Below, one piece after another: positions 6,742-20,747 of a DNA stretch of 24,620 bases. The translations under genes were made by a program, and so were the position numbers. Position 1 is the first letter of the stretch. Each line of letters begins with the position of its first letter. Source of the DNA: Candidatus Hodarchaeum mangrovi (GTDB lineage: Archaea; Asgardarchaeota; Heimdallarchaeia; Hodarchaeales; Hodarchaeaceae). The notes beneath the pieces are model-generated. The model was not told the DNA's origin. It saw only the letters and a program-made list of their open reading frames with translations, and ran no database searches. The stretch is taken from NCBI GenBank assembly GCA_016839515.1, contig JAEOUE010000083.1, positions 1-24,620 of the forward strand, written 5' to 3'.

Positions 6742-7515
6742 ATGGATCTTATTCCAACAATTTTGATTTTAATAATAGCTTTTATAGTAGGCATCGAAGG
6801 TTGGTTCGGCAGTCCATTTGTATTATGGAGCCCTCTTATTAACTCTACTCTTGTAGGAATTGCCTTAGGTGATCCTGCAGCTGGAGTATATATCGGATCA
6901 ATTCTTACCGTTGTCTACTTTGGAGTTGTTCAAATTGGTGCCTCTGCCCCCCCTGATCAAAGCGTAGCTGGAATGGTTGGCGCTGCTGTTTTTATCGAAG
7001 CAGGTGGAGTAGTTGGTGGAGATTTGACGGTTGGTTTAGCTGTCGCAACAGCTGCTGCAATATTGGGGACATACTTCAACATTGCTACCCAAACAATTAA
7101 CACTGTTTGGGTTCATCTTGCGGATGGTGCAGCTGAGAAAGGTGCTACTGGAAGAATCCAACTATACAATGCATTAGGATTGCCTGTTTTCGGAACATTT
7201 AAAGCAGCTTCTGTAGCTGTTTGGCTAATTCTTGCTGACGATATAATAAACTTCGTGAATGGACTTCCAGCTTGGATATTCAACGGATTGTCCGCAGCTG
7301 GTGGTTTGTTGACATGTCTTGGTATTGGTATATTAATTAGCATGATGTGGCGCCGAGATTTAGTTCCATGGTTTATAATTGGATTTACATTTGCATCATA
7401 TGTCTTTTGGGGAACTGCATTCAATCTTGTTGCAAGTACATTGGCTATCGCTGGTCTGATCGCAGCTTTCTATTGGGCACGAACACAACCAAGTGCTCCA
7501 GCTAAAGGAGGTTAA
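6742..7515 (+). CDS. PTS mannose/fructose/sorbose-family IIC component
   Basis: PLINSTLVGIALGD, IGASAPPD, VHLAD..AEKG, PAWIFNGLSAAGGLL..LGIGIL, PWFIIGF. Highly hydrophobic. GAGGAG RBS. Confidence 0.93.
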   Translation: MDLIPTILILIIAFIVGIEGWFGSPFVLWSPLINSTLVGIALGDPAAGVYIGSILTVVYFGVVQIGASAPPDQSVAGMVGAAVFIEAGGVVGGDLTVGLAVATAAAILGTYFNIATQTINTVWVHLADGAAEKGATGRIQLYNALGLPVFGTFKAASVAVWLILADDIINFVNGLPAWIFNGLSAAGGLLTCLGIGILISMMWRRDLVPWFIIGFTFASYVFWGTAFNLVASTLAIAGLIAAFYWARTQPSAPAKGG

Positions 7516-7518
7516 AAA

Positions 7519-8370
7519 ATGGCAGACAAACCTGTTTATCCACTATTTAAATTATTCTGGAGAACCTGGCCTCTACAATGGACACTTAACTATGAACGAA
7601 TGGAAGCATTAGGCTACTGTTTTGCCATGATTCCTGTTCTACAGAAATTATATAAAGGCGAAGAATTAAATGAATGGTTGAAACTGCACCTTGAGTTTTA
7701 TAATACAACACCATATACTCATCCTCTCATTCTTGGGATAGATGTTGCACTTGAAGAACAAGGAGCTACAAAAGATACAGTTCGTGCAGTAAAAACTGGA
7801 TTGATTGGTCCTTTAGCAGGCATTGGAGATGCAGCTTATTGGTTCACCCTAGTACCAATCTGCTTTGGAATTGGTGCAAGCATTGGTAAAGATGGAAACA
7901 TCCTTGGTCCTATTATTGCTTGGGCACTCTGGATTCCACTTGCTTGGGGTTCAAAATATTGGCTTTTAATACAAGGATACAATTATGGATCAGAAATCGC
8001 TACTGCATTGCAAAGCGGCCAGATTGAACAATTCAAAACGATATTGAACGCATTTGGTTTAGGTATGGCTGGAGCTTTGACCGCAATATTTGTAAGTGTT
8101 CAAACTCCTTTGAAGCTCTATGGAGAATTCGAAGGAGAGACTGTAGTATTATTCAGCCTGCAGAGTACACTTGATTCATTTATAGGTCCAGCACTATTAT
8201 CATTGGTGTTTGTCCTGTTTACATTCTGGTTATTGCGGCGTGGATGGTCTGTTCTAAAAGTCTTTGCCATTATCTGGGTTGTCGGTTTAGTTCTCGGTGT
8301 TGTGGGAATAATTGGTGGCGGTGGACTACTCGGAGAATTTGATATACCATTCATTGGAAAGCTGAACTAG
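7519..8370 (+). CDS. PTS mannose/fructose/sorbose-family IID component
   Basis: NYERMEALG, HLEFYNT.P, ILG...ALEE, KTGLIGPLAGIGDA, GNILGP, LQSTLDS. Starts 3 nt after the IIC stop, with a GGAGG RBS. Confidence 0.95.
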   Translation: MADKPVYPLFKLFWRTWPLQWTLNYERMEALGYCFAMIPVLQKLYKGEELNEWLKLHLEFYNTTPYTHPLILGIDVALEEQGATKDTVRAVKTGLIGPLAGIGDAAYWFTLVPICFGIGASIGKDGNILGPIIAWALWIPLAWGSKYWLLIQGYNYGSEIATALQSGQIEQFKTILNAFGLGMAGALTAIFVSVQTPLKLYGEFEGETVVLFSLQSTLDSFIGPALLSLVFVLFTFWLLRRGWSVLKVFAIIWVVGLVLGVVGIIGGGGLLGEFDIPFIGKLN

Positions 8371-8376
8371 TACCCC

Positions 8377-8427
8377 CCCTATAATCTTTTTTTGATTGTA
8401 GGGATCTCTCTCCCTTTTTTTTCTTTT
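8377..8427 (+). terminator. Putative terminator after IID: hairpin(s) plus oligo-T
   Basis: Stem CCCTATAATC-T7-GATTGTAGGG (8377-8403, one G-U pair). Alternative short stem GGGA-N6-TCCC (8401-8414) followed by T8 and CT4. Confidence 0.6.
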
Positions 8428-8478
8428 ATATAAATTAATAAAATTTCTTTATTATCAATTCAGATAGCAGTTTGTGAA

Positions 8479-9576
8479 TTGAGTATGGCGATTGAGCATG
8501 ATATAACAAATATTGTCTCAAAAACTCACATGTACAAAGAAATTTTTCAACAACCAAATATTATTAACCAAACTCTTCAGAATGCATCTAAATTATTCCC
8601 TGATTTCTTAAATCTTTTTGAAAAAAACGATTATAATCTCAGTATCTTTGGTAGTGGGACAAGCTATCATGCTGGAATTGCAGGATCGATAGCTTTTACC
8701 AATATAATTGGTAAATATGTCCCAATTGATCATGCTTCTGAATGGATATATCGATATCCACGAAAAGGCCATAATCTGGGTGTTGCAATAGCGATTAGCC
8801 AAAGTGGAGAAAGTGGTGATGTAATAAGAGCAGCCCAAAACGCAAAAAGTCAGGGTTTAAAATTAGTATCAGTTACAAATGTTTTAGGATCTACTCTTGA
8901 TGAATTAGGGGATTTAACTTTTATAACTCCTGCTGGAGAAGAAAAAGCAATTGCTGCCACGAAATCATATACATCTGCATTAGCTCTATTGCTTGAATGG
9001 GCAATTAAATTAGGACATGAACACCACATCCAACAAGAGAGTCTTTCTGAAGAATTAAGAAATGTTTCCTATAAAATGGAAAAGATCCTAATCAATTCGG
9101 AAAAAAGTATGAAGGAACTTACAGATTACATATCTAATTATAATATTGTATACTTTTTAGGCACAGGATCAAATTTTTCAACAGCACTAGAAGGAGCAAT
9201 GAAATTAAAGGAAACAGGTAACGTCTATGCTGAAGGATTTGGATTTAGAGAGTTTATGCATGGTCATCTACAACTAGTTTCAGAGGAAACTCCAATTATA
9301 ATAGTTTTATCAGGAGAAGAAGACCTATCGGTTATAAAATCTGGAATAGAACGATTAGGGAACTTAAAAGGATCCCTTTTTACTATTACTCAAAGTAAAG
9401 AACAAAATATAGAAACAACTATAACCCAGAATCAAATGTCACTGGGAGAGTATGTTGACCCATTAATTTCTCCATTAACCCTAGTTCTTCCATTACAGCT
9501 CCTAGCATGTTACAATTCCAAGAAGAGAAATTTAAATCCAGATAAACCTACAAAGTTATCAAAAGTCACTTTATAA
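8479..9576 (+). CDS. Double-SIS-domain protein, GlmS isomerase domain only: probable amino-sugar-6-phosphate isomerising deaminase (GlmD/NagB-II-like)
   Basis: HMYKEIFQQP, GSGTSYHA, SQSGE, VTN..GSTL, AGEEKAIAATKSY, EGAMKLKE, EFMHG, NPDKPTKLSKVT. No N-terminal Cys glutaminase domain. Start is TTG 8479 or ATG 8485. Confidence 0.88.
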   Translation: MSMAIEHDITNIVSKTHMYKEIFQQPNIINQTLQNASKLFPDFLNLFEKNDYNLSIFGSGTSYHAGIAGSIAFTNIIGKYVPIDHASEWIYRYPRKGHNLGVAIAISQSGESGDVIRAAQNAKSQGLKLVSVTNVLGSTLDELGDLTFITPAGEEKAIAATKSYTSALALLLEWAIKLGHEHHIQQESLSEELRNVSYKMEKILINSEKSMKELTDYISNYNIVYFLGTGSNFSTALEGAMKLKETGNVYAEGFGFREFMHGHLQLVSEETPIIIVLSGEEDLSVIKSGIERLGNLKGSLFTITQSKEQNIETTITQNQMSLGEYVDPLISPLTLVLPLQLLACYNSKKRNLNPDKPTKLSKVTL

Positions 9577-9594
9577 TGAAAAAATAATCTCAAT

Positions 9595-10242
9595 CTATTT
9601 AATTATTGATAATATATCTAATAGGTTTTTTACCTTCACTCCCGTATATTTTGCCATTTCAGGGATTTCTCTATTCTGATAATAAATAAAATGGATCCCA
9701 GCTTTATCACTTGCCAATAAATCAGTATATGAATCTCCAATATAGACACATTCATTTGCTAATACATCAAATCGTTTTAAAGCTTTAAGAAAAAGGTCAG
9801 GTTCTGGTTTTGGTTTTTCTCCATTAGTACCAAATATATATTCAAAATAATTGAGTAATCCAAGCTGTTTAATCATTTTTTTCGAAGTTATTTCTGAACC
9901 ATTTGTTACCACGCCTAATTTATAATTTCTTGTAAATAATTCCTTTACAAGCTTTTCAGCATTAGCAATTGGTTTTAATTTTGGAATCATTTCTTTTTCA
10001 AAACATGTGTCTACCATGCTAGTCAATTTGTGAACAAGTTCTGGTGATGGCGTACTCAAACCAGCAATTCCTTCAACCATTTCTCTTGTACTTTTATGAA
10101 GTAACTTATTGAATTTCTCTCTAGGAGGATTTATATTAAAATAATCAACAAAAACAGTTGTGACTGCGCCAAACCAAAGGTCTATACTATCAGTTAATAC
10201 GCCATCCATATCAAATAAAACCAAGGAAATATTGGGGAACAT
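9595..10242 (-). CDS. HAD-family phosphatase (third copy, more distant from the other two)
   Basis: LFDMDGVL, VVTN, KPKPEPD, IGDSYTD. I prefer the ATG at 10242 (MFPNISL..., GGTG upstream) over the track start at 10290, because motif I then sits near the N-terminus. Confidence 0.88.
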   Translation of the reverse strand: MFPNISLVLFDMDGVLTDSIDLWFGAVTTVFVDYFNINPPREKFNKLLHKSTREMVEGIAGLSTPSPELVHKLTSMVDTCFEKEMIPKLKPIANAEKLVKELFTRNYKLGVVTNGSEITSKKMIKQLGLLNYFEYIFGTNGEKPKPEPDLFLKALKRFDVLANECVYIGDSYTDLLASDKAGIHFIYYQNREIPEMAKYTGVKVKNLLDILSIIK

Positions 10243-10404
10243 TCTGGGGCACCAACGAGCATCTACAGTTTGTATAGAAATTCTCAACATAACTCAAAAT
10301 AATTTTGTTTTAAGAATGTTAATGATTGAATCTGAAAGAAATCCTTACTAATCTGGATAAACCATTCTCAAAATTCCCCTATTAAATCTAAAATTTTCGC
10401 GAAG

Positions 10405-10416
10405 AAATCCTTTTTA
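10405..10416 (+). promoter_or_regulatory. Putative BRE/TATA (AAATCCTTTTTA) of the aminotransferase operon
   Basis: Same AATCCTTWW pattern and similar distance to the start codon (about 48 nt) as at 854-865. Confidence 0.4.
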
Positions 10417-10463
10417 GAAGGTAATTATTGATATATCACGATTTCGATTAAGAGGAAAATACA

Positions 10464-11588
10464 TTGAGTGATAAGAAATGGAAAGTTCCATTTATTCAAC
10501 CTTTTGTTTCTGATGAAACAAAAAATAGAGTATTAGAAATACTAGAACGTGGGAAAGAAACTGGTTCCTTCACAGTCGGTGTAGAAACTCAAATATTTGA
10601 AGAAAATCTAGCAAAATTTTGTAAGGTTAAACATGCAGTTACATTACATTCAGGTACAGAAGCATTATTTGCTGCTCTTATTGCAGCTAAGATCAAACCT
10701 GGAGATGAAGTTATAACAACTTCCTTAACATTTATTGCGACAATAGAAGCTATCTGGCAGGTTAATGCAAAACCAGTTTTAGCAGATATTCACCCAGAAT
10801 ACTATACAATTGAACCTGATTTGGTGAAGAAAGCAATTACAAAAAAAACTAAAGCAATTATTCCAGTTCATATATATGGACAAGCAGTAGATATGGATCC
10901 AATAATGGAGCTTGCAGCTGATCATAATCTTTTTGTTTTAGAAGACGCATGTCAAGCTTTAGGAGGACGGTATAAAAAAGAAACCATTGGTAGTATTGGG
11001 GATGCTGCAGCTCTCAGTTTTCACCCTCAGAAAAATTTAACAGTCTGTGGAGATGGTGGTGCTCTTCTTACAAACCGTACAGATATTGCTGAAATAGTCG
11101 AAATGATAAGGGATCATGGACGCTTACGAAATCAAGGTTATGATCATCGAATATTAGGTTATAATTTTCGGCTAGGAGAGATTAGAGCAGGAATTGCTAA
11201 TGTTGCCTTACCTCATGTTGAAGGGTGGAATATCAGAAGAAGAGAAATCGCAAAACAATATATGGATGGAATTTCTTCTACTCACACTATTTGTCCTAAA
11301 GAAGCACCATACTCCTACCATGTATATGACTATTACGAAATTCAAACCCAGGATAGGGACGGACTTAGAGAAGAATTAACTAAAAAAGGAATTAAAACTG
11401 ATATTCAGTATCCCAAAGCATGTCATCAACAAGTAGTCTGGGACTATCTAGAAAAATCTAAAATCAATCTTCCAGTTACTGAAAAACTCATCCCAAATAT
11501 TCTTACACTTCCCTCATTCCCAGATCTTACAGACGAACAAGTATCTTATGTAATTGAAACAATAAATAACTACTATAAGGTTAAATAA
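10464..11588 (+). CDS. DegT/DnrJ/EryC1/StrS-family PLP sugar aminotransferase
   Basis: SGTEAL, GDEVITT..TF.AT, AIIPVHIYGQ, EDACQALG, PLP lysine in SFHPQKNL..CGDGG, GYNFRL, LTLP. TTG start with GAGGA RBS. Confidence 0.93.
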   Translation: MSDKKWKVPFIQPFVSDETKNRVLEILERGKETGSFTVGVETQIFEENLAKFCKVKHAVTLHSGTEALFAALIAAKIKPGDEVITTSLTFIATIEAIWQVNAKPVLADIHPEYYTIEPDLVKKAITKKTKAIIPVHIYGQAVDMDPIMELAADHNLFVLEDACQALGGRYKKETIGSIGDAAALSFHPQKNLTVCGDGGALLTNRTDIAEIVEMIRDHGRLRNQGYDHRILGYNFRLGEIRAGIANVALPHVEGWNIRRREIAKQYMDGISSTHTICPKEAPYSYHVYDYYEIQTQDRDGLREELTKKGIKTDIQYPKACHQQVVWDYLEKSKINLPVTEKLIPNILTLPSFPDLTDEQVSYVIETINNYYKVK

Positions 11589-11657
11589 CTCACAATGATT
11601 ATAAATCGTTTCGTATTAGCAAAATCAAAAGAATATATAGTAAAGGAGTTATAACAT

Positions 11658-12749
11658 ATGTCTAAATTAAATATTGGTATGTTAGGATATGGATGGATGG
11701 CGCGAGTCCACACATTTGGATTAAAAAATATAAATGTAAATATAGATCCTAGTCAATCAATAAATCTTTTAGCTGTAAGTGGACGTACAGAATCCAAATT
11801 AAAAGCAATGGCTCAACAATATGGGTACAAGAAATATTTTTTTGATTGGAAGCAAGTTGTTCAAGATCCTGAAACGAACCTTATTGACAATGTTATGCCT
11901 CCCAATGTTCATAAAGAGCCTGCAATAATGACCGCAGAGGAAGGCAAAGCTCAGATATGTGAAAAACCGATTGCCCATACAACTCCTGATGCTGTTGAAA
12001 TGGTAAAGGCTGTGGAAAAAGCGAAGAGCCCAAATATGGTGATGTTTAATTATCGTTATTTACCTGCGATTATGAGGGCAAAAAAATGGGTGGAAGAAGG
12101 TAACTTGGGTGAAATTTTTCAATGTAGATTTCTTTATACAAAACAGAGTCATTTAAATCCATTAAGACCTTTTAGCTGGAAAGATGATCCAGTGATCTCT
12201 GGTGGGGGAGCTCTTATTGATTTGGGGGTTCATGTTGCTGATTTAGTGAGATATTTAGTCGGTGATGTCATAAGAGTTGTCTCTTCCAATGATCGATGGA
12301 TTCATTCGAGGCCTGAATCAAAGGGATCAATAATCCAAAAGGAAATAAGAACTGAAGATGCTGCTATTTCAATTTTAAAATTTAAGAAAGGTTATTTAGG
12401 AATCTTGGAAGCTAGTAAAACAAGTACAGGACATCCAAATACCGTGAGAATTGAAATTCATGGTTCATTAGGTGCACTAATGTGGAATAGTGAACGAACA
12501 CATGAATTGTATCTGCATCACCAAGAAGATGGAGAAAACAATTGGCGAGCAGAATACTTACCTTACCCATACGATGATAGCTATGGGAGAATTGGTTTTG
12601 GACATGTAAATGCATTGGCTAGCTTTATAACTCAATTAGAGACAAAAAATCCCTCATACCCGAGTTTTAAAGATGGATTAGAAGCTTTGAAAATAATTGA
12701 AGCTTCTTATCGTTCTGCCAAAGAAGAAAGGTGGATAAATATTGACTAA
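11658..12749 (+). CDS. Gfo/Idh/MocA-family NAD(P) oxidoreductase
   Basis: Rossmann GMLGYGWMARVH, CEKP, FNYRY.PA, GGGALIDLGVH, EIHGSLG. Confidence 0.93.
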   Translation: MSKLNIGMLGYGWMARVHTFGLKNINVNIDPSQSINLLAVSGRTESKLKAMAQQYGYKKYFFDWKQVVQDPETNLIDNVMPPNVHKEPAIMTAEEGKAQICEKPIAHTTPDAVEMVKAVEKAKSPNMVMFNYRYLPAIMRAKKWVEEGNLGEIFQCRFLYTKQSHLNPLRPFSWKDDPVISGGGALIDLGVHVADLVRYLVGDVIRVVSSNDRWIHSRPESKGSIIQKEIRTEDAAISILKFKKGYLGILEASKTSTGHPNTVRIEIHGSLGALMWNSERTHELYLHHQEDGENNWRAEYLPYPYDDSYGRIGFGHVNALASFITQLETKNPSYPSFKDGLEALKIIEASYRSAKEERWINID

Positions 12750-13341
12750 AAGACAAAAAATAGACCCATTTGTAATTCAATATGATGAAAAATCAAAAAT
12801 GCTGAGTTCTTATTCAGTTAAGAATGATAAAAAGTTAAGTGATATTTCAGATTTTTTTTACAATCAACAAGAGGTAAAAATGATATTAGATAGTGGAAAA
12901 GATCCCTTAGTGTATACATATCATGACAAAGTCCAACCTGAAATTCCTGGAGAATTTAGTTTTGGTATAACAATTATTTACCCTGGAACGATCGGGGAAG
13001 AGTTTTATATGACACGAGGACATTTTCACGGGAAAAATGATGGTGAATTCTATATGGGCCTTGAGGGAGAAGGGATATTAATTTTGGAAGACCAAGACAC
13101 AAGAAAAGCACAAGCACTATATTTTACAAGAAATTCCCTCCCTTACATCCCTGCTGGTTATGGCCATAGGGTTGTAAATGTTGGAAAAATACCTTTAATC
13201 TTTTTAACTGTTGAAGCTGCGGCAGGATCACATGATTATGAAATCATACGGAAAGAAGGATTTGGTGTTTTAGTACTAAAGGATCCCAATTCACAAAAAG
13301 GGTATAAAATTACTCCTAATCCTTCCAGAAAGAAAATTTAA
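12742..13341 (+). CDS. pgiA: Cupin-type (archaeal) glucose-6-phosphate isomerase family protein
   Basis: TIIYPGTIGEEFYMTRGHFH, EFY.GLEGEG, YIPAGYGHRVVN.G, HDYE: the His/His/Glu/His cupin metal set of Thermococcales PGI. TTG start overlaps the upstream gene by 8 nt. Confidence 0.88.
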   Translation: MTKRQKIDPFVIQYDEKSKMLSSYSVKNDKKLSDISDFFYNQQEVKMILDSGKDPLVYTYHDKVQPEIPGEFSFGITIIYPGTIGEEFYMTRGHFHGKNDGEFYMGLEGEGILILEDQDTRKAQALYFTRNSLPYIPAGYGHRVVNVGKIPLIFLTVEAAAGSHDYEIIRKEGFGVLVLKDPNSQKGYKITPNPSRKKI

Positions 13342-13342
13342 G

Positions 13343-14686
13343 ATGGTAATTAAAATGATTGAGATCGGAACGCATGAATTTGAAATAAATCCCAAAATAG
13401 GTCAACCTATGGGAGGGTATTGGCGTTATAATAAATTCATTAAAGGAATGCATGATCCAGTTTTTGGAAATATTCTCATCATATCAAGCAATGAATTAAC
13501 CTACTCTCTAGTTGTTTTAGACGAACTAATTTTAGATAGTAAATTAGTTGAAGAAATGAAGCAGGAAATAGAGAAACGAACAAAAATTCCATTTAAGAAT
13601 ATCACAATACATGTTAATCATACACACAGTACATCAGTGACTGTTCCAGAGCCATCTGATGATGATTACCCTTTCTTACTTCCTGAGGATTGGGATGTCC
13701 AAGAAATGCGAAGATTGACAAAAGAAAGAAGGAAGGGATTAGTTAAAATAGTTTCAGCCGCATCTGAGATTGCTTCTCAACAAATGAATCCTGTAAAGAT
13801 TGGTTATATGGAAGGTCATGCAGAGGATATAGGAAGAAATCGCAATCGACCATTAGATGGACCAGTAGATAATAGTGTACCCGTACTCCGCTTTGAATCG
13901 ACTATTGGAAATCCTCCAGTTATTTTAGCTAATTTTGGTACTCATCCCACAATTGCACCACCTGAAAATTGTTTAATAAGTGGAGATTTAGTAGGTTCGA
14001 CAAGAAAAACTGTAAAAGATCTTTTGGGTTACCATACGAAATTTATTTATACAACAGGTGCTGCAGGAGACGTATCAACCCGTTTCACAAGAAAAAGTAG
14101 CAGTTTTGCCGAAGTAGACCGTATGGGTCATATCTTAGGTGCTGAAATTGTAAAAACCGCCGAGAGAATTACAACCTTTGAAGAAGAAATTAACTTCCAC
14201 GTAAAAGCTGAAGAAATCGAATTACCTGTAAGGAAATTACCCTTATTAAATGAAGCAACACAAATATTCCAGCAGGTAAAAAAAGAATTAGAAGATGCTC
14301 AGGAAGCAAAAAAAGATCTTGGAGTAATAAAAAAGTTAACAGAAAACTTAGAAGGTGCAAGTGTTCAGAAAAGATTTGCTTCCTTAAGTAAACATGAGAA
14401 ATTAGCATTTTCAAAGGAAAAATTCTTGGTTCCACTACAGGCTGTTCGTATTGGAGATGTTAAGTTGATTTTCCATCCTTTTGAGCTTTTCTCTGAAATT
14501 GCTCTAAACATTAAAGCAAAAAACCCTAAAACTATAGTAATTGGCTATTCAAATAATTGGTTAAGCTACATCCCTACCCAATATGCATTTGATGAAAATT
14601 CTTATGAAACTTATATTACTTTAACTACCCCTGGTTCTTATAAAACATTTGAAGATGCAGTTATAAAATTATTAAGAAGCTTATAG
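13343..14686 (+). CDS. Neutral/alkaline non-lysosomal ceramidase-family metal amidohydrolase (copy 2)
   Basis: INP..GQPMGGY, GMHDP, NHTHS, NFGTHPT, ISGD, GAAGDVSTR, PFELFS, GYSN...SYIP, YE. Alternative ATG at 13355. Confidence 0.82.
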   Translation: MVIKMIEIGTHEFEINPKIGQPMGGYWRYNKFIKGMHDPVFGNILIISSNELTYSLVVLDELILDSKLVEEMKQEIEKRTKIPFKNITIHVNHTHSTSVTVPEPSDDDYPFLLPEDWDVQEMRRLTKERRKGLVKIVSAASEIASQQMNPVKIGYMEGHAEDIGRNRNRPLDGPVDNSVPVLRFESTIGNPPVILANFGTHPTIAPPENCLISGDLVGSTRKTVKDLLGYHTKFIYTTGAAGDVSTRFTRKSSSFAEVDRMGHILGAEIVKTAERITTFEEEINFHVKAEEIELPVRKLPLLNEATQIFQQVKKELEDAQEAKKDLGVIKKLTENLEGASVQKRFASLSKHEKLAFSKEKFLVPLQAVRIGDVKLIFHPFELFSEIALNIKAKNPKTIVIGYSNNWLSYIPTQYAFDENSYETYITLTTPGSYKTFEDAVIKLLRSL

Positions 14687-14708
14687 AAATATTCACCTAA
14701 AAATAACT

Positions 14709-15197
14709 TTACTTCTTCATTTTGCTGATTTCATTCATTAATTCATATGATTTATCATCTGGTAACATTTTTGCAGTTAATTTAATTCCCAATTCGTTTA
14801 ATTTTTCATATGTAGAAATTTGGTTAGGTAAAACCCAAATTCCTCTTCCAATCTTGTAAGCGTCTTTCTGTCCTGACATATTCCCTAAATTAACCTGGGG
14901 TAATTTAATATCGTGTTCTACAAGGCCTAAAGCATCTTCAGGGTATTTACAAATTATCATTATATTGTTATCATTCCATTCAGGTTTTTTTAGCTCATTT
15001 ACAGCATTTTCAATTGTGAGTGTCTTAACTATTATTCCAGATGGGGCTCCCATTGGTACCATTGCAGCTATCATAGGGTTATTTGCAACTTCATCATTTA
15101 CTACAAAGACGGTATCGGCCTTTACTCGTTTAATCCATGCCATTCCTACTTGACCATGGATTAACCTATCATCAATTCTTACATGAACGATCGCCAT
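14709..15197 (-). CDS. PTS mannose/sorbose-family IIB component
   Basis: VRIDDRLIHGQV (phospho-His), VVND, VNLGNM, LPDD. Confidence 0.95.
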   Translation of the reverse strand: MAIVHVRIDDRLIHGQVGMAWIKRVKADTVFVVNDEVANNPMIAAMVPMGAPSGIIVKTLTIENAVNELKKPEWNDNNIMIICKYPEDALGLVEHDIKLPQVNLGNMSGQKDAYKIGRGIWVLPNQISTYEKLNELGIKLTAKMLPDDKSYELMNEISKMKK

Positions 15198-15610
15198 TAC
15201 TCAGATAAACGCTCCTTTATCCATTTTTTAACATCTAGAATGCCTTTATGGCCAGAATTTAATGCTATTGTTTTTAATTCTGCTAGTTTTTTAGCTTTTC
15301 TTTGTAATGTTACTTCAAGTAGCATTGGAAGATTAATTCCTGTCACTAATTCTAGATCATCATTATTATATGCCATTTTCCCCGCAACATTAGAAGGAGT
15401 CCCTCCAAAGAGATCAAGAAGAATCAACACTCCATCTTCTTTATCACATTTTTTTATTACTTTAATAAATTCGTCTTGAAGAGTTTCAGGACTTACTCCC
15501 TCTTCTAAAACCAAGGAAAATACTAATTCTTGTTTTCCAATAATTAATTCCATTGCATTAATTAATCCTTCTGATAATGTTCCGTGAGATGCAATAATTA
15601 GACCAATCAT
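15197..15610 (-). CDS. PTS mannose-family IIA component
   Basis: IIASHG (phospho-His), LLDLFGGTPSN, VTGINLPMLLE. TAATG stop/start overlap with IIB. Confidence 0.95.
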   Translation of the reverse strand: MIGLIIASHGTLSEGLINAMELIIGKQELVFSLVLEEGVSPETLQDEFIKVIKKCDKEDGVLILLDLFGGTPSNVAGKMAYNNDDLELVTGINLPMLLEVTLQRKAKKLAELKTIALNSGHKGILDVKKWIKERLSE

Positions 15611-15643
15611 TTCTAAACCTTCGTATTAAAATAATATTCTTCA

Positions 15644-16459
15644 TCAATTTTTCAACTTATGGTATCCTAAATTCAATCTACCACTTTTTAAAGGTACAGA
15701 TTTTGGACTAGCTTGAATAGGATGGTAAAACAATTTTGTAGAAGCGATACAATAACTTTCCATTGCAAGAATTTCAACAAAATCTGTTTGTGAACCATTT
15801 TCAACACTTGTGAGTATAGTTTCACAGAGTTCTTGCGATGATCTTCTATAACTCCCTTTACCAAGAATGCTTCCTCGGATACGGAAGGGATTGATCAAAT
15901 TTTTTTTGTTATCAATTGTCCTAATTCCTTCCTGTTTCCAACCAAGGGTAATTTGATCTCCGAATCCCCATTTACTTTTTAAAAAATGCATTTTTAAAGA
16001 AATAAATGCATTTAGTAACTGATAATCTTGAATTTCGTAATTTACTTCAACAAAATTAAGAAATCGAATCATATCAATATTGTACCAGAAACTTAGAGCA
16101 TATTGAGAATCAATAACAATTAATCGCCTTTTAGTAATCAATAAATGTTGGTTGCCATAGCTGACATTCTTTGGGGAGACAAGAATTATTCTACCAATAT
16201 ATTTGAGATTTTCATCTGCAAACAAGAGTGGAACTGCTTTTTTTGCTATAAAACCAGTTTTATATCTAAGAAAATATGATGATCCATAATTCAATAAATC
16301 ATCCTTAATTGTCAGTAGTCTTCCTGTAATATCAACATCCTGTTTAACCGATAAATCAAGTGTGTAAACATCTAGTTTGGGAAATCCGTTTTCAATGATC
16401 GGAATAATTTCTTTCGCCTGACCAAGTTTAATTGTGATGGAAACCTCGTTATTATTCAT
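15644..16459 (-). CDS. Hypothetical protein, probably co-transcribed with IIA-IIB
   Basis: 271-aa ORF with AGGAG RBS, 33 nt upstream of IIA. LLITKRRLIVID resembles PH-like beta strands (weak). Confidence 0.7.
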   Translation of the reverse strand: MNNNEVSITIKLGQAKEIIPIIENGFPKLDVYTLDLSVKQDVDITGRLLTIKDDLLNYGSSYFLRYKTGFIAKKAVPLLFADENLKYIGRIILVSPKNVSYGNQHLLITKRRLIVIDSQYALSFWYNIDMIRFLNFVEVNYEIQDYQLLNAFISLKMHFLKSKWGFGDQITLGWKQEGIRTIDNKKNLINPFRIRGSILGKGSYRRSSQELCETILTSVENGSQTDFVEILAMESYCIASTKLFYHPIQASPKSVPLKSGRLNLGYHKLKN

Positions 16460-16699
16460 TACCTATCTCCTAATAAAGAATAGAATGATTATTAAACAAA
16501 TTTTTGCTGTTTCTTCTGTAAATTTCATCTTAAAAAGATATTCAACTCATTTTGCTTATTCTTTCAAGAGATTACTTGTTCTCACAATGGAATTTAGTGA
16601 AATATAAAACTATTGCTTGGATATTTTAATACATTCACAATGTAAACTAGATTGGATGAATCAGGAATAAATTAAATATTCTAAATATTATATCTCCCA

Positions 16700-17374: not shown

Positions 17375-17646
17375 AGTTAGAAGCCTATATACAGCATATT
17401 TTAGAAAATCCCTCTGAAGAAGTCCTTTTTGAAGCAGGGAAAAAAATCAAAGGATTGACGAAAAAGACAGATGGTGTAATAGCATATGAAGTTAAAATTT
17501 TTGCTAAAGAAGTGGGTTCTCTAGCCTCCTTTGCTTCTCCCAAGGCAACTATCATGCAATGGTCTCCTGATAAAATACGAGATTTTATAAATAAGAAAAA
17601 GATGAACCTAAGTAAAAAAAGTCTACAATTAGAGATTGATGACTGA
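17371..17646 (+). CDS. Small hypothetical protein
   Basis: TTG start overlapping the upstream TGA, GGTGA RBS, charged soluble composition. Confidence 0.65.
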   Translation: MKLEAYIQHILENPSEEVLFEAGKKIKGLTKKTDGVIAYEVKIFAKEVGSLASFASPKATIMQWSPDKIRDFINKKKMNLSKKSLQLEIDD

Positions 17647-17681
17647 AGCTTCAGCTGTATTAAATATTTTAAATCTAACAA

Positions 17682-18521
17682 TTAAGCTATATTGTACAAT
17701 GTGATTATTTCAGGAGTACTTTTTGCTGAACTAGATTGAACCTTATAATCTTTAGAGATTCCTATTATTGAGATAATTGCCGATACTTCCGCTTTACATT
17801 CTTCAACCATATCTAATAAGGTTTGAACCGTTTTTCCAGTACGAATAATATCATCAATAATAAGTACACGATCTTTAGGATTAATTTTCGCTCTTTGAAG
17901 ATATATCGTTTGTTGTCTATTCTGTTCATAAAGCTGAATAGATTTAGAAAGATACTCTTCGATTCCCAAGGGCGGATCATGCTTTATATAGACCAATGGT
18001 ATCTCAAATTCTTGAGCGAGAATCAAAGCGAAGGGTGTCCCATCAGTACTTCCTGCCACGATTTTATCAAACTTCTTGTCAAATAATTCTGTTCGAGCAA
18101 CAATGAAAGCAATTTTTTTCAATAAGTCCAAATCAGAAAGTAGAGCACTTGTGTCTACAAAATATACATCTTGGATTCGCATCCCCAGTATTCCTTTTAC
18201 AATTAAATTTGCAGGTACTATTTTATCCAGTATAAAAGACAATAGAAAGTTTTTTCTTTCATCAGTAGGAAGAGCTTTTCTATTTATATATCGTGAAAGG
18301 TCTGCAACCGAAAAAATCCCCTTTAACACTTGTCTCTTATCAAGTGTATCTTGAAACTTACCTATAATATAATTATTTAGAATAGAAGCCATAGTTTCTA
18401 GATTATTATACTCTTCAAAAAGACTAGTCAAGAATTTGACGACCATGATCTTCTCATGGGCATTTTTAAGTTTATCTCTCTTAGAATCTGAAAAAGAATG
18501 TTTTTTTTTCAGTGATAACAA
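17682..18521 (-). CDS. Archaeal-type HTH plus phosphoribosyltransferase-fold protein (PurR/APRT-like regulator)
   Basis: N-terminal LSRYIN...LP recognition-helix pattern. C-terminal FDKIVAGSTDGTPFA and PRPP loop VLIIDDIIRTGKT. Confidence 0.8.
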   Translation of the reverse strand: MLSLKKKHSFSDSKRDKLKNAHEKIMVVKFLTSLFEEYNNLETMASILNNYIIGKFQDTLDKRQVLKGIFSVADLSRYINRKALPTDERKNFLLSFILDKIVPANLIVKGILGMRIQDVYFVDTSALLSDLDLLKKIAFIVARTELFDKKFDKIVAGSTDGTPFALILAQEFEIPLVYIKHDPPLGIEEYLSKSIQLYEQNRQQTIYLQRAKINPKDRVLIIDDIIRTGKTVQTLLDMVEECKAEVSAIISIIGISKDYKVQSSSAKSTPEIITLYNIA

Positions 18522-18739
18522 CTTCCAGTTAATATTTTCAGTTATAATGAAAATTGAAGTATTACAATAAGTTTACAAATCTATGTAAAATCTTTCCTAT
18601 TTCTGAGTAAAGAGCTGATTAAAAATGAGTTGAACATTGGGACACATTAGCGAAATATTATTATGAAAAAAGGAAAAAAAATCACATTGATAATCATCAA
18701 AAGAATAAAATGATCTATTTAGATGATCGTACTTGAGGA

Positions 18740-20473
18740 TTAGAAGAAGCATCGTTTTGATGGTTCAATATATTCATCTAATTTCTTTCGTGCCTGCTCT
18801 TGAATATCAAATGGATTTTCTAATGTTAGGAGATTTTCAACCCATCCCTGTAATTCTTGATAGCTCAATTGTTTAACAACGAATTTAACCTTTGGGATAT
18901 CCTCAGGATTTAAACTCAATTCGTCAATGCCTAAACCGATAAGAATAGGAATTGAAGTAAAATTACTTGCCATTTCTCCGCAGATACCAACCCATTTCTT
19001 TTCTTTATGAGCATTGATGACCACTTCTCGGATTAAACGTAAGACTGAAGGTTGAAAATGACTATGAAATATGCTAACATTCGGATTAATTCTATCTGCA
19101 GCCATTACATACTGGGTTAGATCATTAGTACCAATACTAAAAAAATCAACATAACGGATGAATTTATCAGAAAGGACTGCAGCACTAGGAGTCTCTATCA
19201 TAATGCCTATTGATAATTCATCTTTGTAATTCAACTCTTCTTTTATTTTCATAACGATAAGATTTATTGCCTGAATCTCTTCAATTAGAGAGATCATTGG
19301 AACCATTATTTTTAGATTTTTCTCTTCATTCGCTAAAATGAATGCTCGGATCATTGTTTCCATCAATTCAGGATGATCATTAGTTAAACGGATTCCTCTC
19401 ACTCCAAGTGCTGGATTTGGTTCTTTTTCCAAAGGTAGACTAGGAATAGATTTATCAGAACCTAAATCTAAAGTTCTAATAATTACATCATAAGGCTGAC
19501 ATTTTTGAGAAACTTTTTGGAAAATTCTAATAAGTGCCTCTTGCGTCGGTAAAGAAGGTAGTTCTGTATATAAAAGTTCGGTACGGAATAAACCAATTCC
19601 TTCTCCACCATTTTTAATAGTGTTTTCAACTTCATCTAAGTTTGCAGCATTTCCTGCTACAATTATTCTTCTCCCATCTTTAGTAATAGCCTCATCCCCC
19701 GAAATTTGTTTTAAATATTCTTCCATCTCAAGATTTCTGGTAATTATCTCTTTAATATGATCAATGATCTCTTGAGTCGGATCTATTATCAATTTCCCTT
19801 CCTCTCCATCAATTATTGATAGAGTATCTGTTTGAATCTGTGAGAGAATTGCATTACATTCAATTAACAACGGAATTCCCATTGATTTAACAACAATCGA
19901 AAGATGTGATGTAAACGTACCATTTTCAAGTACAATCCCTAGAATATTTTTCCTTCCAATTCGAGCTAGATCAGTGACAAATAGATCATTTGCAATTACA
20001 ATTGAAGGTCTTTTGGGTATTCTCTGAGAAGAAAATTCTCCACTGAGCAGTTCGAGCAAAAAAATTTTAATGTCTCGAATATCGGAGGCCCTTTGTTGAA
20101 GATAAGGATCTGAAATACCTTCAATCATACGAGCATATTCTTCTAAGACAGTTTCGACAGCGTACTCAGTGGTATGATGGTTATCCTGGATTTCAGAGGT
20201 TGCTTTTGAAATAAATTTTGGATCTTTAAGTACCATTTTTAATGCATTAAAGATTTCACAAATTTCAGAGGTTTCTTCCTCAACAAAATCTTTCGTGAAT
20301 CTTCTATAATGAGTTTCTGCATTGTCTAAGGTAGACTGAAGCTTCAATAATTCCTGTTCTACCTCCTCTGAAGGTATTTTTTCATCGTTAATTCTTATTT
20401 CTTTTTTTGTATAGATAAAGCATGGTCCAATTACACTTTTTTTACTTAGACTTTTGCCTATAAATTGCTCCAA
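18740..20473 (-). CDS. ptsI: PEP-protein phosphotransferase, PTS enzyme I
   Basis: YLQQRASDIRD, phospho-His in TSHLSIV, GIGLFRTE, IRTLDLGSDK, EPNPALGVRGIR, MIETPSA, FFSIGTNDLTQY, GICGEMA. 577 aa, TTG start. Confidence 0.97.
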   Translation of the reverse strand: MEQFIGKSLSKKSVIGPCFIYTKKEIRINDEKIPSEEVEQELLKLQSTLDNAETHYRRFTKDFVEEETSEICEIFNALKMVLKDPKFISKATSEIQDNHHTTEYAVETVLEEYARMIEGISDPYLQQRASDIRDIKIFLLELLSGEFSSQRIPKRPSIVIANDLFVTDLARIGRKNILGIVLENGTFTSHLSIVVKSMGIPLLIECNAILSQIQTDTLSIIDGEEGKLIIDPTQEIIDHIKEIITRNLEMEEYLKQISGDEAITKDGRRIIVAGNAANLDEVENTIKNGGEGIGLFRTELLYTELPSLPTQEALIRIFQKVSQKCQPYDVIIRTLDLGSDKSIPSLPLEKEPNPALGVRGIRLTNDHPELMETMIRAFILANEEKNLKIMVPMISLIEEIQAINLIVMKIKEELNYKDELSIGIMIETPSAAVLSDKFIRYVDFFSIGTNDLTQYVMAADRINPNVSIFHSHFQPSVLRLIREVVINAHKEKKWVGICGEMASNFTSIPILIGLGIDELSLNPEDIPKVKFVVKQLSYQELQGWVENLLTLENPFDIQEQARKKLDEYIEPSKRCFF

Positions 20474-20477
20474 AATT

Positions 20478-20747
20478 TTACCCTTCTTCTCCTAAACCAG
20501 CCTCAATAATTGCCACCAGTTTTTTAATTGACTCATCCTCATCTATTCCATTAGTAATTATTTTAATGGTTGTACCTTTCACTGCACCTAATGTTAAAAT
20601 ATCAAGAAGACTTTTACCATCAGCTGATTTGTTATTACATTCAATTATTATGTCTGAAGTGTATTCTTGTGCTGTTTTTACGAAAAATGCTGCGGGACGA
20701 GCATGTAATCCAACAGAATTGATCAAGGTAACTTCGACACTTTGCAG
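20478..20747 (-). CDS. ptsH: Phosphocarrier protein HPr (proposed CTG start at 20747)
   Basis: GLHARPAA and DGKSLLDIL. Starting at the in-frame CTG gives MQSVEVTLINSVGLH, with His at 15 and Ser at 46. GAGGG lies 7 nt upstream. The track's TTG at 20726 would truncate strand beta-1. Confidence 0.93.
   Translation of the reverse strand: MQSVEVTLINSVGLHARPAAFFVKTAQEYTSDIIIECNNKSADGKSLLDILTLGAVKGTTIKIITNGIDEDESIKKLVAIIEAGLGEEG

What the first reader, a model, noticed from the sequence alone, without database searches (positions are those of the whole stretch)
6742..20747. Complete mannose-family PTS (EI, HPr, IIA, IIB, IIC, IID) in an apparently archaeal, non-halophile locus
Seen: all six components are intact with phospho-acceptor histidines (EI TSH, HPr GLHARP, IIA SHG, IIB LIHGQ). 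They sit among archaeal-type genes (cupin PGI, DhnA aldolase, HTH-PRTase, GbsR) with GGTGA RBSs and TATA-like boxes. Known: PTS is essentially bacterial. The archaeal cases I know are the haloarchaeal fructose PTS and a genome-predicted system in Thermofilum. Inference: very low GC and non-acidic proteins exclude haloarchaea, and the style suggests an Asgard (Heimdall/Hodarchaeales-like) host. That would make this group translocation in a lineage where it is not, to my knowledge, characterised.
Basis: partly seen in the sequence, partly recalled or inferred. Interest (0 to 1): 0.88.

Follow-up and report, generated by a model that had tools for sequence, protein, structure and literature searches.

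The report
Complete mannose-type PTS in Hodarchaeales archaeon
An Asgard archaeon of the Hodarchaeales kind carries a complete, intact bacterial-style sugar uptake machine (a mannose-family phosphotransferase system), a transport mode that a published survey did not find in Asgard archaea.

Summary
The window is the whole contig C329. It encodes IIC, IID, IIB, IIA, EI and HPr, all full length and with the expected phospho-acceptor residues.

The host guess also holds. The 4.0-Mb bin is archaeal, with S8e and two adjacent Snf7 genes. Its S8e is closest to proteins labelled Hodarchaeales or Hodarchaeota.

The contig is neither mis-binned nor chimeric.
- Its tetranucleotide profile is typical of the bin.
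- Genes at both ends have same-genus orthologues at 62-77% identity.
- Two metagenome contigs of a sister species keep the same gene order at 82% DNA identity.
- PTS genes there show dN/dS 0.05-0.18, like the native neighbours.

The IID falls in a strongly supported clade. Its only members of known origin are Asgard genomes, and no named bacterium lies inside.

The same bin holds a second complete PTS, of galactitol/ascorbate type, on contig C290. That system is orthologous in 6 of 21 congeners.

I found no paper describing a PTS in Asgard archaea. One 2021 survey reports none.

The substrate is unproven. My best guess is a hexosamine-like sugar. I rate this a new member of a known kind, of moderate to high interest.

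The parts
6742..7515 (+). PTS EIIC, mannose/sorbose family (257 aa)
   Evidence: Pfam PF03609 at 169 bits, full length. NCBIfam Man/Fru/Sor IIC subfamily at 130 bits, below its cut-off. AGGAG lies 8 nt upstream.
7519..8370 (+). PTS EIID, mannose family (283 aa), a separate gene 3 nt after IIC
   Evidence: Pfam PF03613 at 265 bits. PDB ManZ chains 7vlx and 6k1h at E 1e-40 to 1e-43. Relatives at 93, 89 and 81% identity on small metagenome contigs. Sits in a clade with Asgard IIDs.
8479..9576 (+). Two-SIS sugar-phosphate isomerase/deaminase, like the isomerase domain of GlmS (365 aa)
   Evidence: Pfam SIS. NCBIfam GlmS C-terminal half at 239 bits, NagB-II at 119 bits, AgaS at 31 bits. PDB 1moq at 147 bits and GlcN6P deaminase 8eol at 92 bits.
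9595..10290 (-). HAD-family phosphatase/mutase (231 aa)
   Evidence: Pfam HAD_2 at 128 bits.
10464..11588 (+). DegT-family PLP sugar aminotransferase (374 aa)
   Evidence: Pfam PF01041 at 360 bits. PDB 7b0d (glutamine-scyllo-inositol transaminase) at 295 bits and NtdA at 171 bits.
11658..12749 (+). GFO/IDH/MocA NAD-dependent sugar dehydrogenase (363 aa)
   Evidence: Pfam. NCBIfam levoglucosan-dehydrogenase model at 248 bits, below its cut-off of 650. PDB 6a3f at 193 bits. Homologues at 30-33% identity lie beside the Man-PTS in three other Asgard genomes (G285, G287, G290).
12742..13341 (+). Cupin-type glucose-6-phosphate isomerase-like protein (199 aa)
   Evidence: Pfam PF06560 at 85 bits. A 50% identical paralogue lies on C29.
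13343..14686 (+). Neutral-ceramidase-N-domain-like protein (447 aa), a possible amidohydrolase
   Evidence: Pfam PF04734 partial match. Atlas clusters at 0.95. Paralogues at 2861-4189 (31%) and on C29 (45%). A 32% homologue lies beside the PTS of G007.
14709..15197 (-). PTS EIIB, sorbose/mannose type (162 aa)
   Evidence: Pfam PF03830 at 147 bits. RIDDRLIHGQV motif. 90% identical in the sister contig, dN/dS 0.05.
15197..15610 (-). PTS EIIA, mannose type (137 aa)
   Evidence: Pfam PF03610 at 87 bits. NCBIfam AgaF at 119.6 bits, cut-off 130. IIASHG motif. dN/dS 0.14.
15644..16459 (-). Unknown 271-aa protein, first gene of the unk271-IIA-IIB string
   Evidence: No Pfam match. Conserved at 73% in the sister contig, dN/dS 0.20. 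The Atlas search and AlphaFold gave nothing usable.
17682..18446 (-). PRT-domain protein with a ~85-aa N-terminal helical domain (254 aa), a putative PurR/GfcR-like regulator
   Evidence: Pfam Pribosyltran. PDB PurR at 38 bits. Invariant S.A.LSRY.N.KALP motif. AF2 model at pLDDT 84.6. APRT fold, with PurR aligned over 223-238 columns.
18740..20473 (-). PTS Enzyme I (577 aa)
   Evidence: Three EI Pfam domains. Aligns end to end with E. coli EI chain 2hwg at 343 bits, with His and Cys conserved. 79% identical in the sister contig, dN/dS 0.17.
20478..20747 (-). HPr (89 aa if started at CTG 20747)
   Evidence: Pfam PF00381 at 85 bits. GLHARPA, with His at position 15 counted from 20747. The sister contig has TTG at the same place.
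22560..24295 (-). Native flank: PI-PLC-like protein (22560-23510) and MarR/TrmB-type regulator (23714-24295)
   Evidence: Same-genus orthologues at 69-75% identity in 5 of 21 genomes and at 62-77% in 10 of 21. Same order in the sister contig.
1..255 (-). Native flank: N-terminus of a genus-conserved secreted protein
   Evidence: 49% identity over 57 aa, E 3e-18, to a protein of more than 584 aa in G066. DNA matches at 71-77% in G066, G067, G075 and G076.

Best explanation
Contig C329 is a genuine chromosomal piece of a Hodarchaeales-like Asgard archaeon. Between native genes it carries a ~22-kb sugar-utilisation island. At its core is a complete mannose-family PTS that is maintained by selection.

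Proposed mechanism:
- PEP phosphorylates EI on the His of TSH.
- EI passes the phosphate to HPr His15.
- HPr passes it to the His of IIA (IIASHG).
- IIA passes it to the His of IIB (LIHGQ).
- IIB phosphorylates the sugar as the IIC/IID membrane pair carries it in, giving a sugar phosphate. The 6-position is inferred by analogy with the family.

The neighbouring enzymes then feed the product into hexose-phosphate metabolism. These are the GlmS-isomerase-like SIS protein, the ceramidase-like putative amidase, the DegT aminotransferase, the GFO dehydrogenase, the cupin isomerase and the HAD phosphatases. My best guess for the substrate is a hexosamine or N-acyl-hexosamine-like sugar.

The PRT-domain protein next to EI and HPr probably acts as a sugar-phosphate-sensing transcription factor of the PurR/GfcR type.

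The system is ultimately of bacterial origin. It has been resident long enough to match host composition, to co-diverge with a sister species, and to form a clade with the Man-PTS of another Asgard family.

Shown here: gene content, intact catalytic motifs, host identity, linkage, conservation and purifying selection.
Inferred: actual phosphotransfer, transport, substrate and regulation.
For: Components and motifs.

Host:
- S8e and a tandem Snf7 pair in the bin.
- The best named S8e relatives are Hodarchaeales or Hodarchaeota at 79-75%.

Linkage to the host:
- The tetranucleotide distance of C329 to the bin mean is 0.0069. That is the 21st percentile of 112 contigs of 10 kb or more. Only 6.7% of the 45 contigs of 15-35 kb lie closer.
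- The MarR-type gene has orthologues at 62-77% in 10 of 21 congeners.
- The PI-PLC-like gene has orthologues at 69-75% in 5 of 21.
- The left-end ORF is homologous to a genus-conserved protein.
- The cupin + ceramidase-like pair is paralogous to a pair on C29, at 50% and 45%.

Independent recovery:
- L152 and L153 keep the order MarR, PI-PLC, MFS, HPr, EI, PRT, unk91, unk224, unk271, IIA, IIB, Cer2. DNA identity is 82% over 10,058 aligned columns.
- 20 runs from 7 studies hold at least 62% of the sampled words of 14700-22600.
- Logan contigs of 4 runs from 4 studies tile 1-20000. One piece covers 6478-9995, spanning IIC to the HAD gene. Another covers 10148-15661, spanning DegT to IIA.

Selection:
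- dN/dS against L152 is 0.05 for IIB, 0.14 for IIA, 0.17 for EI and 0.18 for HPr.
- The native MFS, PI-PLC and MarR genes give 0.09-0.14.
- dS ranges overlap.

Phylogeny:
- In the careful IID tree of 109 rows, the window group falls in a 16-row clade with support 100/95.
- That clade also holds the IIDs of G285, G286, G287 and G290 and 8 unnamed metagenome proteins.
- None of the 71 named bacterial rows lies inside.
- Identity to those Asgard IIDs is 45-48%. The best named bacterial loci reach at most 40% and the word-based protein search at most 41% (Asgard figures).

Regulator. The precedent is GfcR, which binds the promoter of the Haloferax fructose-PTS gene ptfC (PMC10838023, abstract and passages).
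Against: - No expression or biochemical data exist.
- None of the 21 other species genomes of the genus has an EIID gene, so within the genus this is an accessory trait.
- The IIC-IID-SIS segment is a compositional outlier. Its distance is 0.0356, against a 95th percentile of 0.029 for random 3-kb pieces of the bin. Membrane-protein bias or residual foreign signal could explain this.
- The window's HPr needs a CTG start to be full length.
- EI is only 31-37% identical to other Asgard EIs, so EI may have a different history from IID.
- The closest IID relatives after the near-identical ones (49-54%) are unnamed and could be bacterial. The 'Asgard clade' rests on 5 genomes of known origin.
- Substrate assignment is weak. 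No NCBIfam equivalog cut-off was reached by any EII subunit, and no sugar kinase or deacetylase of a known family lies on the contig.
- The bin is a MAG with 6.1% estimated contamination and no rRNA genes.
Confidence: 0.75

Rival explanations
1. The contig is a mis-binned or chimeric bacterial fragment, so the PTS belongs to a low-GC bacterium in the same sample.
For: The PTS is typically bacterial. The bin has 6.1% estimated contamination. 0 of 21 congeners have EIID. The IIC-IID-SIS segment is a tetranucleotide outlier.
Against: - Both contig ends carry genes with same-genus orthologues at 62-77% identity, or 49% for the short left-end ORF.
- The sister-species contigs L152 and L153 join the same native genes to HPr, EI, IIA and IIB.
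- No named bacterial IID exceeds 41% identity.
- The whole-contig composition is typical of the bin.
Confidence: 0.03
2. The genes are archaeal and intact, but the system does not work as a sugar group translocator. The relay might serve mainly as a regulatory phosphorelay, or the EII membrane complex might not function in an ether-lipid membrane.
For: EI and HPr have regulatory roles in bacteria (general knowledge). The window's HPr has a non-canonical CTG start. No RNA or protein evidence is available.
Against: - The full set of transport-specific parts is kept under purifying selection. IIB and IIA were tested against L152. IID is conserved at 81-93% in relatives.
- The parts are embedded among sugar-phosphate enzymes.
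- A bacterial-type PTS does work in haloarchaeal membranes. This is the Haloferax fructose PTS of Pickl et al. 2012, which I saw only as cited in PMC12525153 and PMC7997004.
Confidence: 0.12
3. The substrate is not an amino sugar. It is a neutral hexose, glycoside or cyclitol-like compound whose catabolism starts with the GFO-family dehydrogenase, as in 3-keto-sugar routes. The SIS and DegT enzymes would serve side reactions.
For: - The GFO dehydrogenase is the only enzyme partner found beside the Man-PTS in three further Asgard genomes (G285, G287, G290), at 30-33% identity.
- Its best matches are levoglucosan, scyllo-inositol or L-glucose dehydrogenases.
- The best PDB match of DegT is a scyllo-inositol transaminase.
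Against: - The SIS gene follows IID directly, in the same orientation, and is most like the amino-sugar-handling GlmS isomerase domain and NagB-II.
- IIA is closest to AgaF, the GalN/GalNAc IIA subunit, at 119.6 bits against a cut-off of 130.
- Two ceramidase-like putative amidases are in the island.
Confidence: 0.3

Closest known systems
Bacterial mannose-family PTS (E. coli ManXYZ, TC 4.A.6; solved ManY/ManZ complexes 6k1h and 7vlx)
   Same: The same six protein families, the same phospho-acceptor motifs, and a separate IIC and IID. IID aligns over residues 12-266 with E. coli ManZ.
   Different: - The host is an Asgard archaeon.
- IIA and IIB are separate proteins.
- The genes lie in three blocks spread over 14 kb, with EI and HPr inside the same island.
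- IID is at most 41% identical to any named bacterial protein.
- No bacterial-type regulator such as ManR, LevR or sigma-54 was seen. I did not search for those specifically.
Haloarchaeal fructose PTS (Haloferax volcanii PtfABC with PtsI and Hpr; Haloarcula marismortui pNG700 cluster)
   Same: A bacterial-type PTS with its own EI and HPr in an archaeon, acquired by gene transfer (PMC2405797 passages; PMC12525153 passage). It is regulated by a PRT-domain/HTH factor, GfcR, which binds the ptfC promoter (PMC10838023).
   Different: - The haloarchaeal system is of the fructose family, with a single EIIC. Here the system is of the mannose family, with IIC plus IID.
- In the control genomes Haloferax gave matches for EI and EIIC-GAT but not for EIID.
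- The host here is a low-GC, non-halophilic Asgard archaeon.
Amino-sugar and ketosamine Man-type systems (E. coli Aga GalNAc/GalN PTS; Salmonella Gfr fructoselysine/glucoselysine PTS)
   Same: A Man-type EII next to a two-SIS deaminase or deglycase-like enzyme. IIA is nearest to the AgaF model. Some IID relatives at 36-38% identity are named fructoselysine/glucoselysine EIID by their source.
   Different: - No equivalog cut-off is reached.
- The SIS protein scores 31 bits on the AgaS family model, against 239 bits on the GlmS model.
- No AgaA/NagA deacetylase, tagatose-6-phosphate kinase or class II aldolase lies on the contig.
- What the Gfr and Aga operons contain is recalled, not checked here.
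Man-type PTS loci of other Asgard genomes (G285, G286, G287, G289, G290 of family f24; G007 of family f11)
   Same: - IID falls in the same clade for G285, G286, G287 and G290, at 45-48% identity.
- IIA is 41-43% identical and IIB 36-37%.
- A GFO dehydrogenase sits next to the PTS in G285, G287 and G290. In G007 a ceramidase-like gene does so.
- EI is present in most of these genomes.
   Different: - There IIC and IID are fused into one protein of 547-634 aa. In the window they are two genes.
- The neighbours differ: PadR, HAAS and DUF7916 in G290.
- EI lies on other contigs.

Membership tests
Mannose-fructose-sorbose PTS family (TC 4.A.6) | Two membrane subunits, IIC and IID. IID is found only in this family. 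| tested here: met
   PF03609 at 169 bits and PF03613 at 265 bits, both near full length. PDB ManZ matches.
Mannose-fructose-sorbose PTS family (TC 4.A.6) | IIA of the Man fold with an N-terminal phospho-His | tested here: met
   PF03610 at 87 bits. His in IIASHG at residue 9. Phosphorylation itself is not testable here.
Mannose-fructose-sorbose PTS family (TC 4.A.6) | IIB of the sorbose type, phosphorylated on His rather than Cys | tested here: met
   PF03830 at 147 bits. RIDDRLIHGQV motif.
Mannose-fructose-sorbose PTS family (TC 4.A.6) | General proteins EI and HPr with their catalytic residues | tested here: met
   EI has three domains, TSH and ICGEMA, aligned to the E. coli EI His189 and Cys502 regions. 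HPr has GLHARPA.
Mannose-fructose-sorbose PTS family (TC 4.A.6) | PEP-dependent, transport-coupled sugar phosphorylation | not testable with these tools
   This needs biochemistry or complementation.
GalNAc/GalN (Aga) PTS equivalogs of NCBIfam | Score at or above the curated equivalog cut-off for each subunit | tested here: not met
   IIA (AgaF) scores 119.6 against 130. IID (GalN) scores 167.6 against 400. IIB scores 98.5 against 180. IIC scores 93.3 against 300.
Fructoselysine/glucoselysine (Gfr) PTS | Orthology to GfrABCD and FrlB/GfrE-type deglycases | not tested
   The only pointer is source-given names on two relatives at 36-38% identity. No model of this family appeared in the NCBIfam output.
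Asgard (Hodarchaeales-like) chromosomal locus | The bin carries archaeal and Asgard markers, and its markers are nearest to Hodarchaeales | tested here: met
   S8e on C138 and two Snf7 genes on C153. Named S8e relatives. No rRNA was found. The names are the submitters'.
Asgard (Hodarchaeales-like) chromosomal locus | The contig is physically and evolutionarily tied to that genome | tested here: met
PurR/GfcR-type PRT-domain transcription factors | PRT fold together with an N-terminal DNA-binding (winged-helix or HTH) domain | tested here: inconclusive
   - The PRT domain is clear.
- The N-terminal ~85 residues are predicted as six helices with an invariant LSRY.N.KALP motif.
- Pfam finds no HTH.
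- PurR superposes only with rmsd 6.5-12.5.
- DNA binding is not testable here.

The most novel reading that the evidence does not exclude
PTS-based group translocation is an established trait within Asgard archaea and not a one-off contaminant-like acquisition.

- A Man-type lineage, with IIC and IID either split or fused, has been resident and exchanged among at least two Asgard classes.
- A galactitol/ascorbate-type PTS with its own EI and HPr is inherited across a Hodarchaeales genus.
- The relay has been wired into archaeal transcription through a PurR/GfcR-like PRT-domain regulator. This would give these relatives of eukaryotes a bacterial-style, PEP-linked system for sensing and taking up sugars.
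Probability: 0.3. Interest if true: 0.72.

Novelty: new member of a known kind. Interest (0 to 1): 0.6.

Why it matters
The PTS is regarded as essentially bacterial. The archaeal cases in the papers I could read are haloarchaeal systems of the fructose class. A dedicated transporter census of Asgard genomes reported not a single PTS protein.

Complete PTSs of two families in a Hodarchaeales-like genome therefore matter in three ways.
- Scattered systems elsewhere in the phylum (EI in 17 of 400 sampled genomes) change the picture of how these organisms can take up sugars.
- They add a concrete, testable case of bacterial-to-Asgard transfer of a multi-protein membrane machine.
- They offer a mannose-family permease that must work in an archaeal membrane.

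This also matters for metabolic reconstructions of the closest archaeal relatives of eukaryotes. Such reconstructions usually assume ABC and secondary sugar transporters.

Tried and rejected
- rRNA search in the bin found no archaeal or bacterial SSU. Taxonomy therefore rests on proteins.
- DNA-level synteny with the 21 congeners showed only short matches at 65-77% and no shared block. I went to protein level instead.
- The DeoC aldolase as a marker of nativeness reaches only 35-37% identity to congeners. It belongs to the accessory island.
- The HTH-PRT protein as a taxonomic marker gave only 7 relatives, none with an organism name.
- The search for related loci in genome contigs returned 80 bacterial loci.
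- The sigma-70 promoter and terminator scan gave 44 promoter-like sites against 34.6 +/- 6.3 expected, and 3 terminator-like sites against 2.6. This is uninformative.
- No tRNA and no Rfam family lie on the contig. No integrase or transposase appeared among the Pfam results.
- unk271: the Atlas gave only scores of 0.87 or less. Single-sequence AlphaFold gave pLDDT 30, which is unusable.
- Comparing the PRT protein with the PhoU/MazE-domain protein of C290 showed no similarity.
- Expression: no RNA holder is listed among the 24 runs. The one metatranscriptome listed holds next to none of the words.
- In read laying, run X8 has one bin of 30 without cover and three odd joints from low-depth contigs. 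I draw nothing from these.
It remains a recalled claim.
- Supplementary files of papers were closed. Supplementary annotation tables of the large Asgard genome papers may list PTS genes that I could not see.

Full report
WHAT IS THERE

The window is the entire 24,620-bp contig C329 of a bin of 348 contigs and 4.0 Mb. The bin is 91.3% complete with 6.1% contamination, and both the bin and the contig have G+C 0.33.

Pfam finds all six PTS parts, each near full length:
- IIC at 6742-7515 (+).
- IID at 7519-8370 (+).
- IIB at 14709-15197 (-).
- IIA at 15197-15610 (-).
- EI at 18740-20473 (-).
- HPr at 20478-20747 (-).

- EI has TFTSHLSIV, FFSIGTNDLTQY and ICGEMA. These align with the His189 and Cys502 regions of E. 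coli EI.
- HPr has GLHARPA.
- IIA has IIASHG.
- IIB has RIDDRLIHGQV.

An HPr of normal length must start at 20747. That codon is CTG here and TTG in the sister contig.

Between and around the PTS genes lie the following:
- a GlmS-isomerase-like two-SIS protein;
- three HAD hydrolases;
- a DegT aminotransferase;
- a GFO-family dehydrogenase;
- a cupin GPI-like protein;
- two ceramidase-N-domain-like proteins;
- a DeoC/LacD aldolase;
- a threonine-aldolase-like PLP enzyme;
- a PRT-domain protein;
- an MFS transporter.

WHOSE GENOME

The bin has no SSU rRNA. It does encode ribosomal protein S8e, which in the controls is found only in archaea, and two adjacent Snf7 (ESCRT-III) genes.

12 relatives of its S8e at 64% identity or more bear an organism name:
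- 6 are Hodarchaeales or Hodarchaeota, with the best at 79%.
- 2 are Heimdallarchaeota and 2 are Promethearchaeota.
- 1 is Hermodarchaeota and 1 is Thorarchaeota.
- Proteins labelled Heimdallarchaeum aukensis or Lokiarchaeota are 48-53% identical.

I therefore read the host as a Hodarchaeales-like member of Heimdallarchaeia. The caveat is that these are submitters' labels.

DOES THE CONTIG BELONG TO THAT GENOME

Composition. The tetranucleotide profile of C329 lies at the 21st percentile of distance to the bin mean among 112 contigs of 10 kb or more. Only the 2.8-kb IIC-IID-SIS segment exceeds the 95th percentile for pieces of its size.

Native genes at both ends.
- The MarR/TrmB-type regulator has orthologues at 62-77% identity in 10 of 21 other species of the genus.
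- The PI-PLC-like protein has orthologues at 69-75% in 5 of 21.
- The truncated left-end ORF matches a genus-conserved secreted protein. Identity is 49% over 57 aa (E 3e-18), and DNA matches of 71-77% occur in four genomes.

A sister species. Two metagenome contigs, L152 and L153, hold the same order: MarR, PI-PLC, MFS, HPr, EI, PRT, unk91, unk224, unk271, IIA, IIB and the start of Cer2. DNA identity is 82% over about 10 kb.

Independent assemblies. Near-identical sequence is held by 20 runs of 7 studies. Independent contigs from four studies tile 1-20000, with single pieces covering IIC to HAD3 and DegT to IIA.

A bacterial mis-bin or a chimera would need two false joins, reproduced in other assemblies. 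I put that at about 3%.

IS IT MAINTAINED

Against L152, dN/dS is 0.05 for IIB, 0.14 for IIA, 0.17 for EI and 0.18 for HPr. The range for the native MFS, PI-PLC and MarR genes is the same, 0.09-0.14. The dS ranges overlap, 0.49-1.03 against 0.33-1.17.

This fits presence of the PTS in the common ancestor of the two species, followed by purifying selection. IID relatives at 93, 89 and 81% identity occur on small metagenome contigs.

WHERE DID IT COME FROM

The word-based search of 5.8 billion proteins found nothing between 81% and 41% identity. The best 80 of at least 596 matching bacterial species loci are at most 40% identical. They are mostly Bacillota.

IIDs of the Asgard genomes G285, G286, G287 and G290 are 45-48% identical. 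Those genomes belong to family f24, in a different class.

The exhaustive HMMER scan of 1.84 billion representatives gave four better hits at 49-54%. Three of the four are fused IIC-IID proteins. All are unnamed, and among my loci they are nearest to the f24 genes.

In the careful tree (109 rows, 242 columns) the window group, the four f24 IIDs and eight unnamed proteins form a clade with support 100/95. None of the 71 named bacterial rows is inside it, nor inside the next clade of 19 rows with support 96/96. The quick tree agreed but carried a long-branch warning.

The system is thus of bacterial type. Its nearest relatives of known origin, however, are other Asgard archaea. The unnamed members could still be bacterial.

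EI tells less. It is only 31-37% identical to any other Asgard EI, and I had no searches left to sample bacterial EIs.

DISTRIBUTION

- EIID occurs in 7 of 400 sampled genomes of the phylum, G000 included. By group this is 0 of 21 congeners, 1 of 4 in f11 and 5 of 7 in f24.
- The EI N-domain is over the Pfam cut-off in 17 of 400 genomes, and 23 of 400 at E up to 0.001. Three of these have an in-frame TGA.
- In the other Asgard loci IIC and IID are fused. IIA and IIB lie nearby, with a GFO dehydrogenase beside the PTS in G285, G287 and G290, and a ceramidase-like gene in G007.

A SECOND PTS

The bin's contig C290 carries EIIC-GAT, a lactose-type IIB, EIIA_2, HPr and EI, with a class II aldolase and a Zn-dependent dehydrogenase.

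EIIC-GAT is found in 7 of 22 genomes of the genus, G000 included. Identities to the G000 proteins are as follows:
- EIIC: 74-83% in five congeners.
- IIB: 59-84% in the same five congeners.
- HPr: 60-76% in four congeners.
- IIA: 57-63% in those four.
- EI: 49-58% in those four.

The genus therefore already has a PTS relay that looks inherited within the genus. The window's Man-type system is a second and rarer one.

HOW IT MOST LIKELY WORKS

Shown: the parts list and the catalytic residues for the relay PEP, EI, HPr, IIA, IIB and then sugar at IIC/IID.

Inferred: that the relay runs and that the sugar is phosphorylated on entry.

For the substrate I favour a hexosamine or N-acyl-hexosamine-like sugar, at roughly 35-40%. 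The reasons are these:
- A GlmS-isomerase/NagB-II-like SIS enzyme follows IID directly.
- IIA is nearest to the AgaF model, at 119.6 against a cut-off of 130.
- Two ceramidase-like proteins could be the deacylases.

The rival is a neutral sugar or cyclitol route that starts with the GFO dehydrogenase. That enzyme is the only enzyme partner found beside the PTS in three further Asgard genomes.

The HAD, DegT and GFO trio also recalls the kanosamine enzymes NtdB, NtdA and NtdC. The gene functions are recalled. Only the NtdA match was seen here, at 171 bits.

REGULATION

The 254-aa protein next to EI has an APRT-like PRT fold plus a conserved N-terminal helical domain. This is the architecture of PurR and of GfcR.

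GfcR is the Haloferax activator that binds the promoter of the fructose-PTS gene ptfC and responds to sugar phosphates (PMC10838023, abstract and passages).

A conserved block of about 50 nt lies roughly 50-100 nt upstream of the HPr start, in an otherwise diverged spacer. The regulatory role is inference only.

LITERATURE

Eight searches were run.
- PMC7997004 (passages) states that no PTS protein was identified in four Asgard MAGs and MK-D1.
- PMC2405797 (passages) found the PTS absent from 19 archaea except Haloarcula marismortui.
- PMC12525153 (passage) mentions only the Haloferax fructose PTS.
- No paper in the held library describes a PTS in Asgard, Heimdall or Hodarchaeales genomes.
- Supplements and subscription journals were not searchable.

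VERDICT

This is a new host lineage for a known kind of system. Three further findings add to it: it forms a clade with other Asgard copies, it co-exists with a second PTS that is conserved in the genus, and it is under purifying selection. Function and substrate remain to be shown.

Noticed in passing
G000 contig C290 (L028: 7689-15327): A second complete PTS in the same bin. It comprises EIIC-GAT, a lactose-type IIB, EIIA_2, HPr and EI, next to a class II aldolase and a Zn-dependent dehydrogenase. EIIC-GAT is found in 6 of the 21 other species genomes of the genus; in five of them EIIC is 74-83% identical to the G000 protein.
   Followed up: partly
Phylum-wide, loci L030-L054: The EI N-terminal domain is over the Pfam cut-off in 17 of 400 sampled Asgard genomes, in families f1, f6, f9, f11, f20 and f24. 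The EI matches in G003, G006 and G008 carry an in-frame TGA, so these may be broken or split genes.
   Followed up: no
window 20726-20765: Full-length HPr needs a CTG start at 20747, with an in-frame TAA at 20765-20763. The sister contig L152 has TTG at the same place. A GAGGG / GGGAAAAG purine-rich motif lies a few bases (about 3-8 nt) upstream of the start in both.
   Followed up: partly
window 12742-14686 and G000 C29 (L029: 4016-6040): The cupin GPI-like and ceramidase-like gene pair is duplicated on contig C29, at 50% and 45% identity, beside a TrmB-type regulator. A third ceramidase-like gene lies at 2861-4189. A homologue sits beside the Man-PTS of G007. The function of this ~440-aa family in sugar clusters is unknown.
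   Followed up: partly
window 9595-12749: A HAD phosphatase, a DegT aminotransferase and a GFO dehydrogenase lie side by side. This is the same enzyme trio as the kanosamine pathway NtdB/NtdA/NtdC (recalled). NtdA matches DegT at 171 bits, but a scyllo-inositol transaminase matches better at 295 bits.
   Followed up: partly
window 20790-20850 (minus strand, upstream of HPr); L152 7590-7650: A block of about 50 nt, ..GGATTTTTTGTT..ATTAATAAAAGATNCATAAAAAGCTTTAANCTTG.., is nearly identical between the window and the sister contig, in a spacer that is otherwise diverged. It may be a promoter or operator.
   Followed up: no
L055-L059 (G285, G287, G290, G007, G286): In the other Asgard genomes IIC and IID are fused into one ORF of 547-634 aa. 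Three of the four closest unnamed representatives are fused as well, at 510-518 aa. The window has two genes separated by 3 nt.
   Followed up: partly
window 6742-9576: The IIC-IID-SIS segment is a tetranucleotide outlier against the bin, at 0.0356 versus a 95th percentile of 0.029 for 3-kb pieces. The EI-HPr and IIB-IIA segments are not outliers.
   Followed up: no
window 15644-17646: Three ORFs without any family match (271, 224 and 91 aa) sit between IIA and the PRT-domain gene. They are conserved in the sister contig at 73-91% identity, with dN/dS 0.04-0.20, so they are real genes of unknown role.
   Followed up: partly
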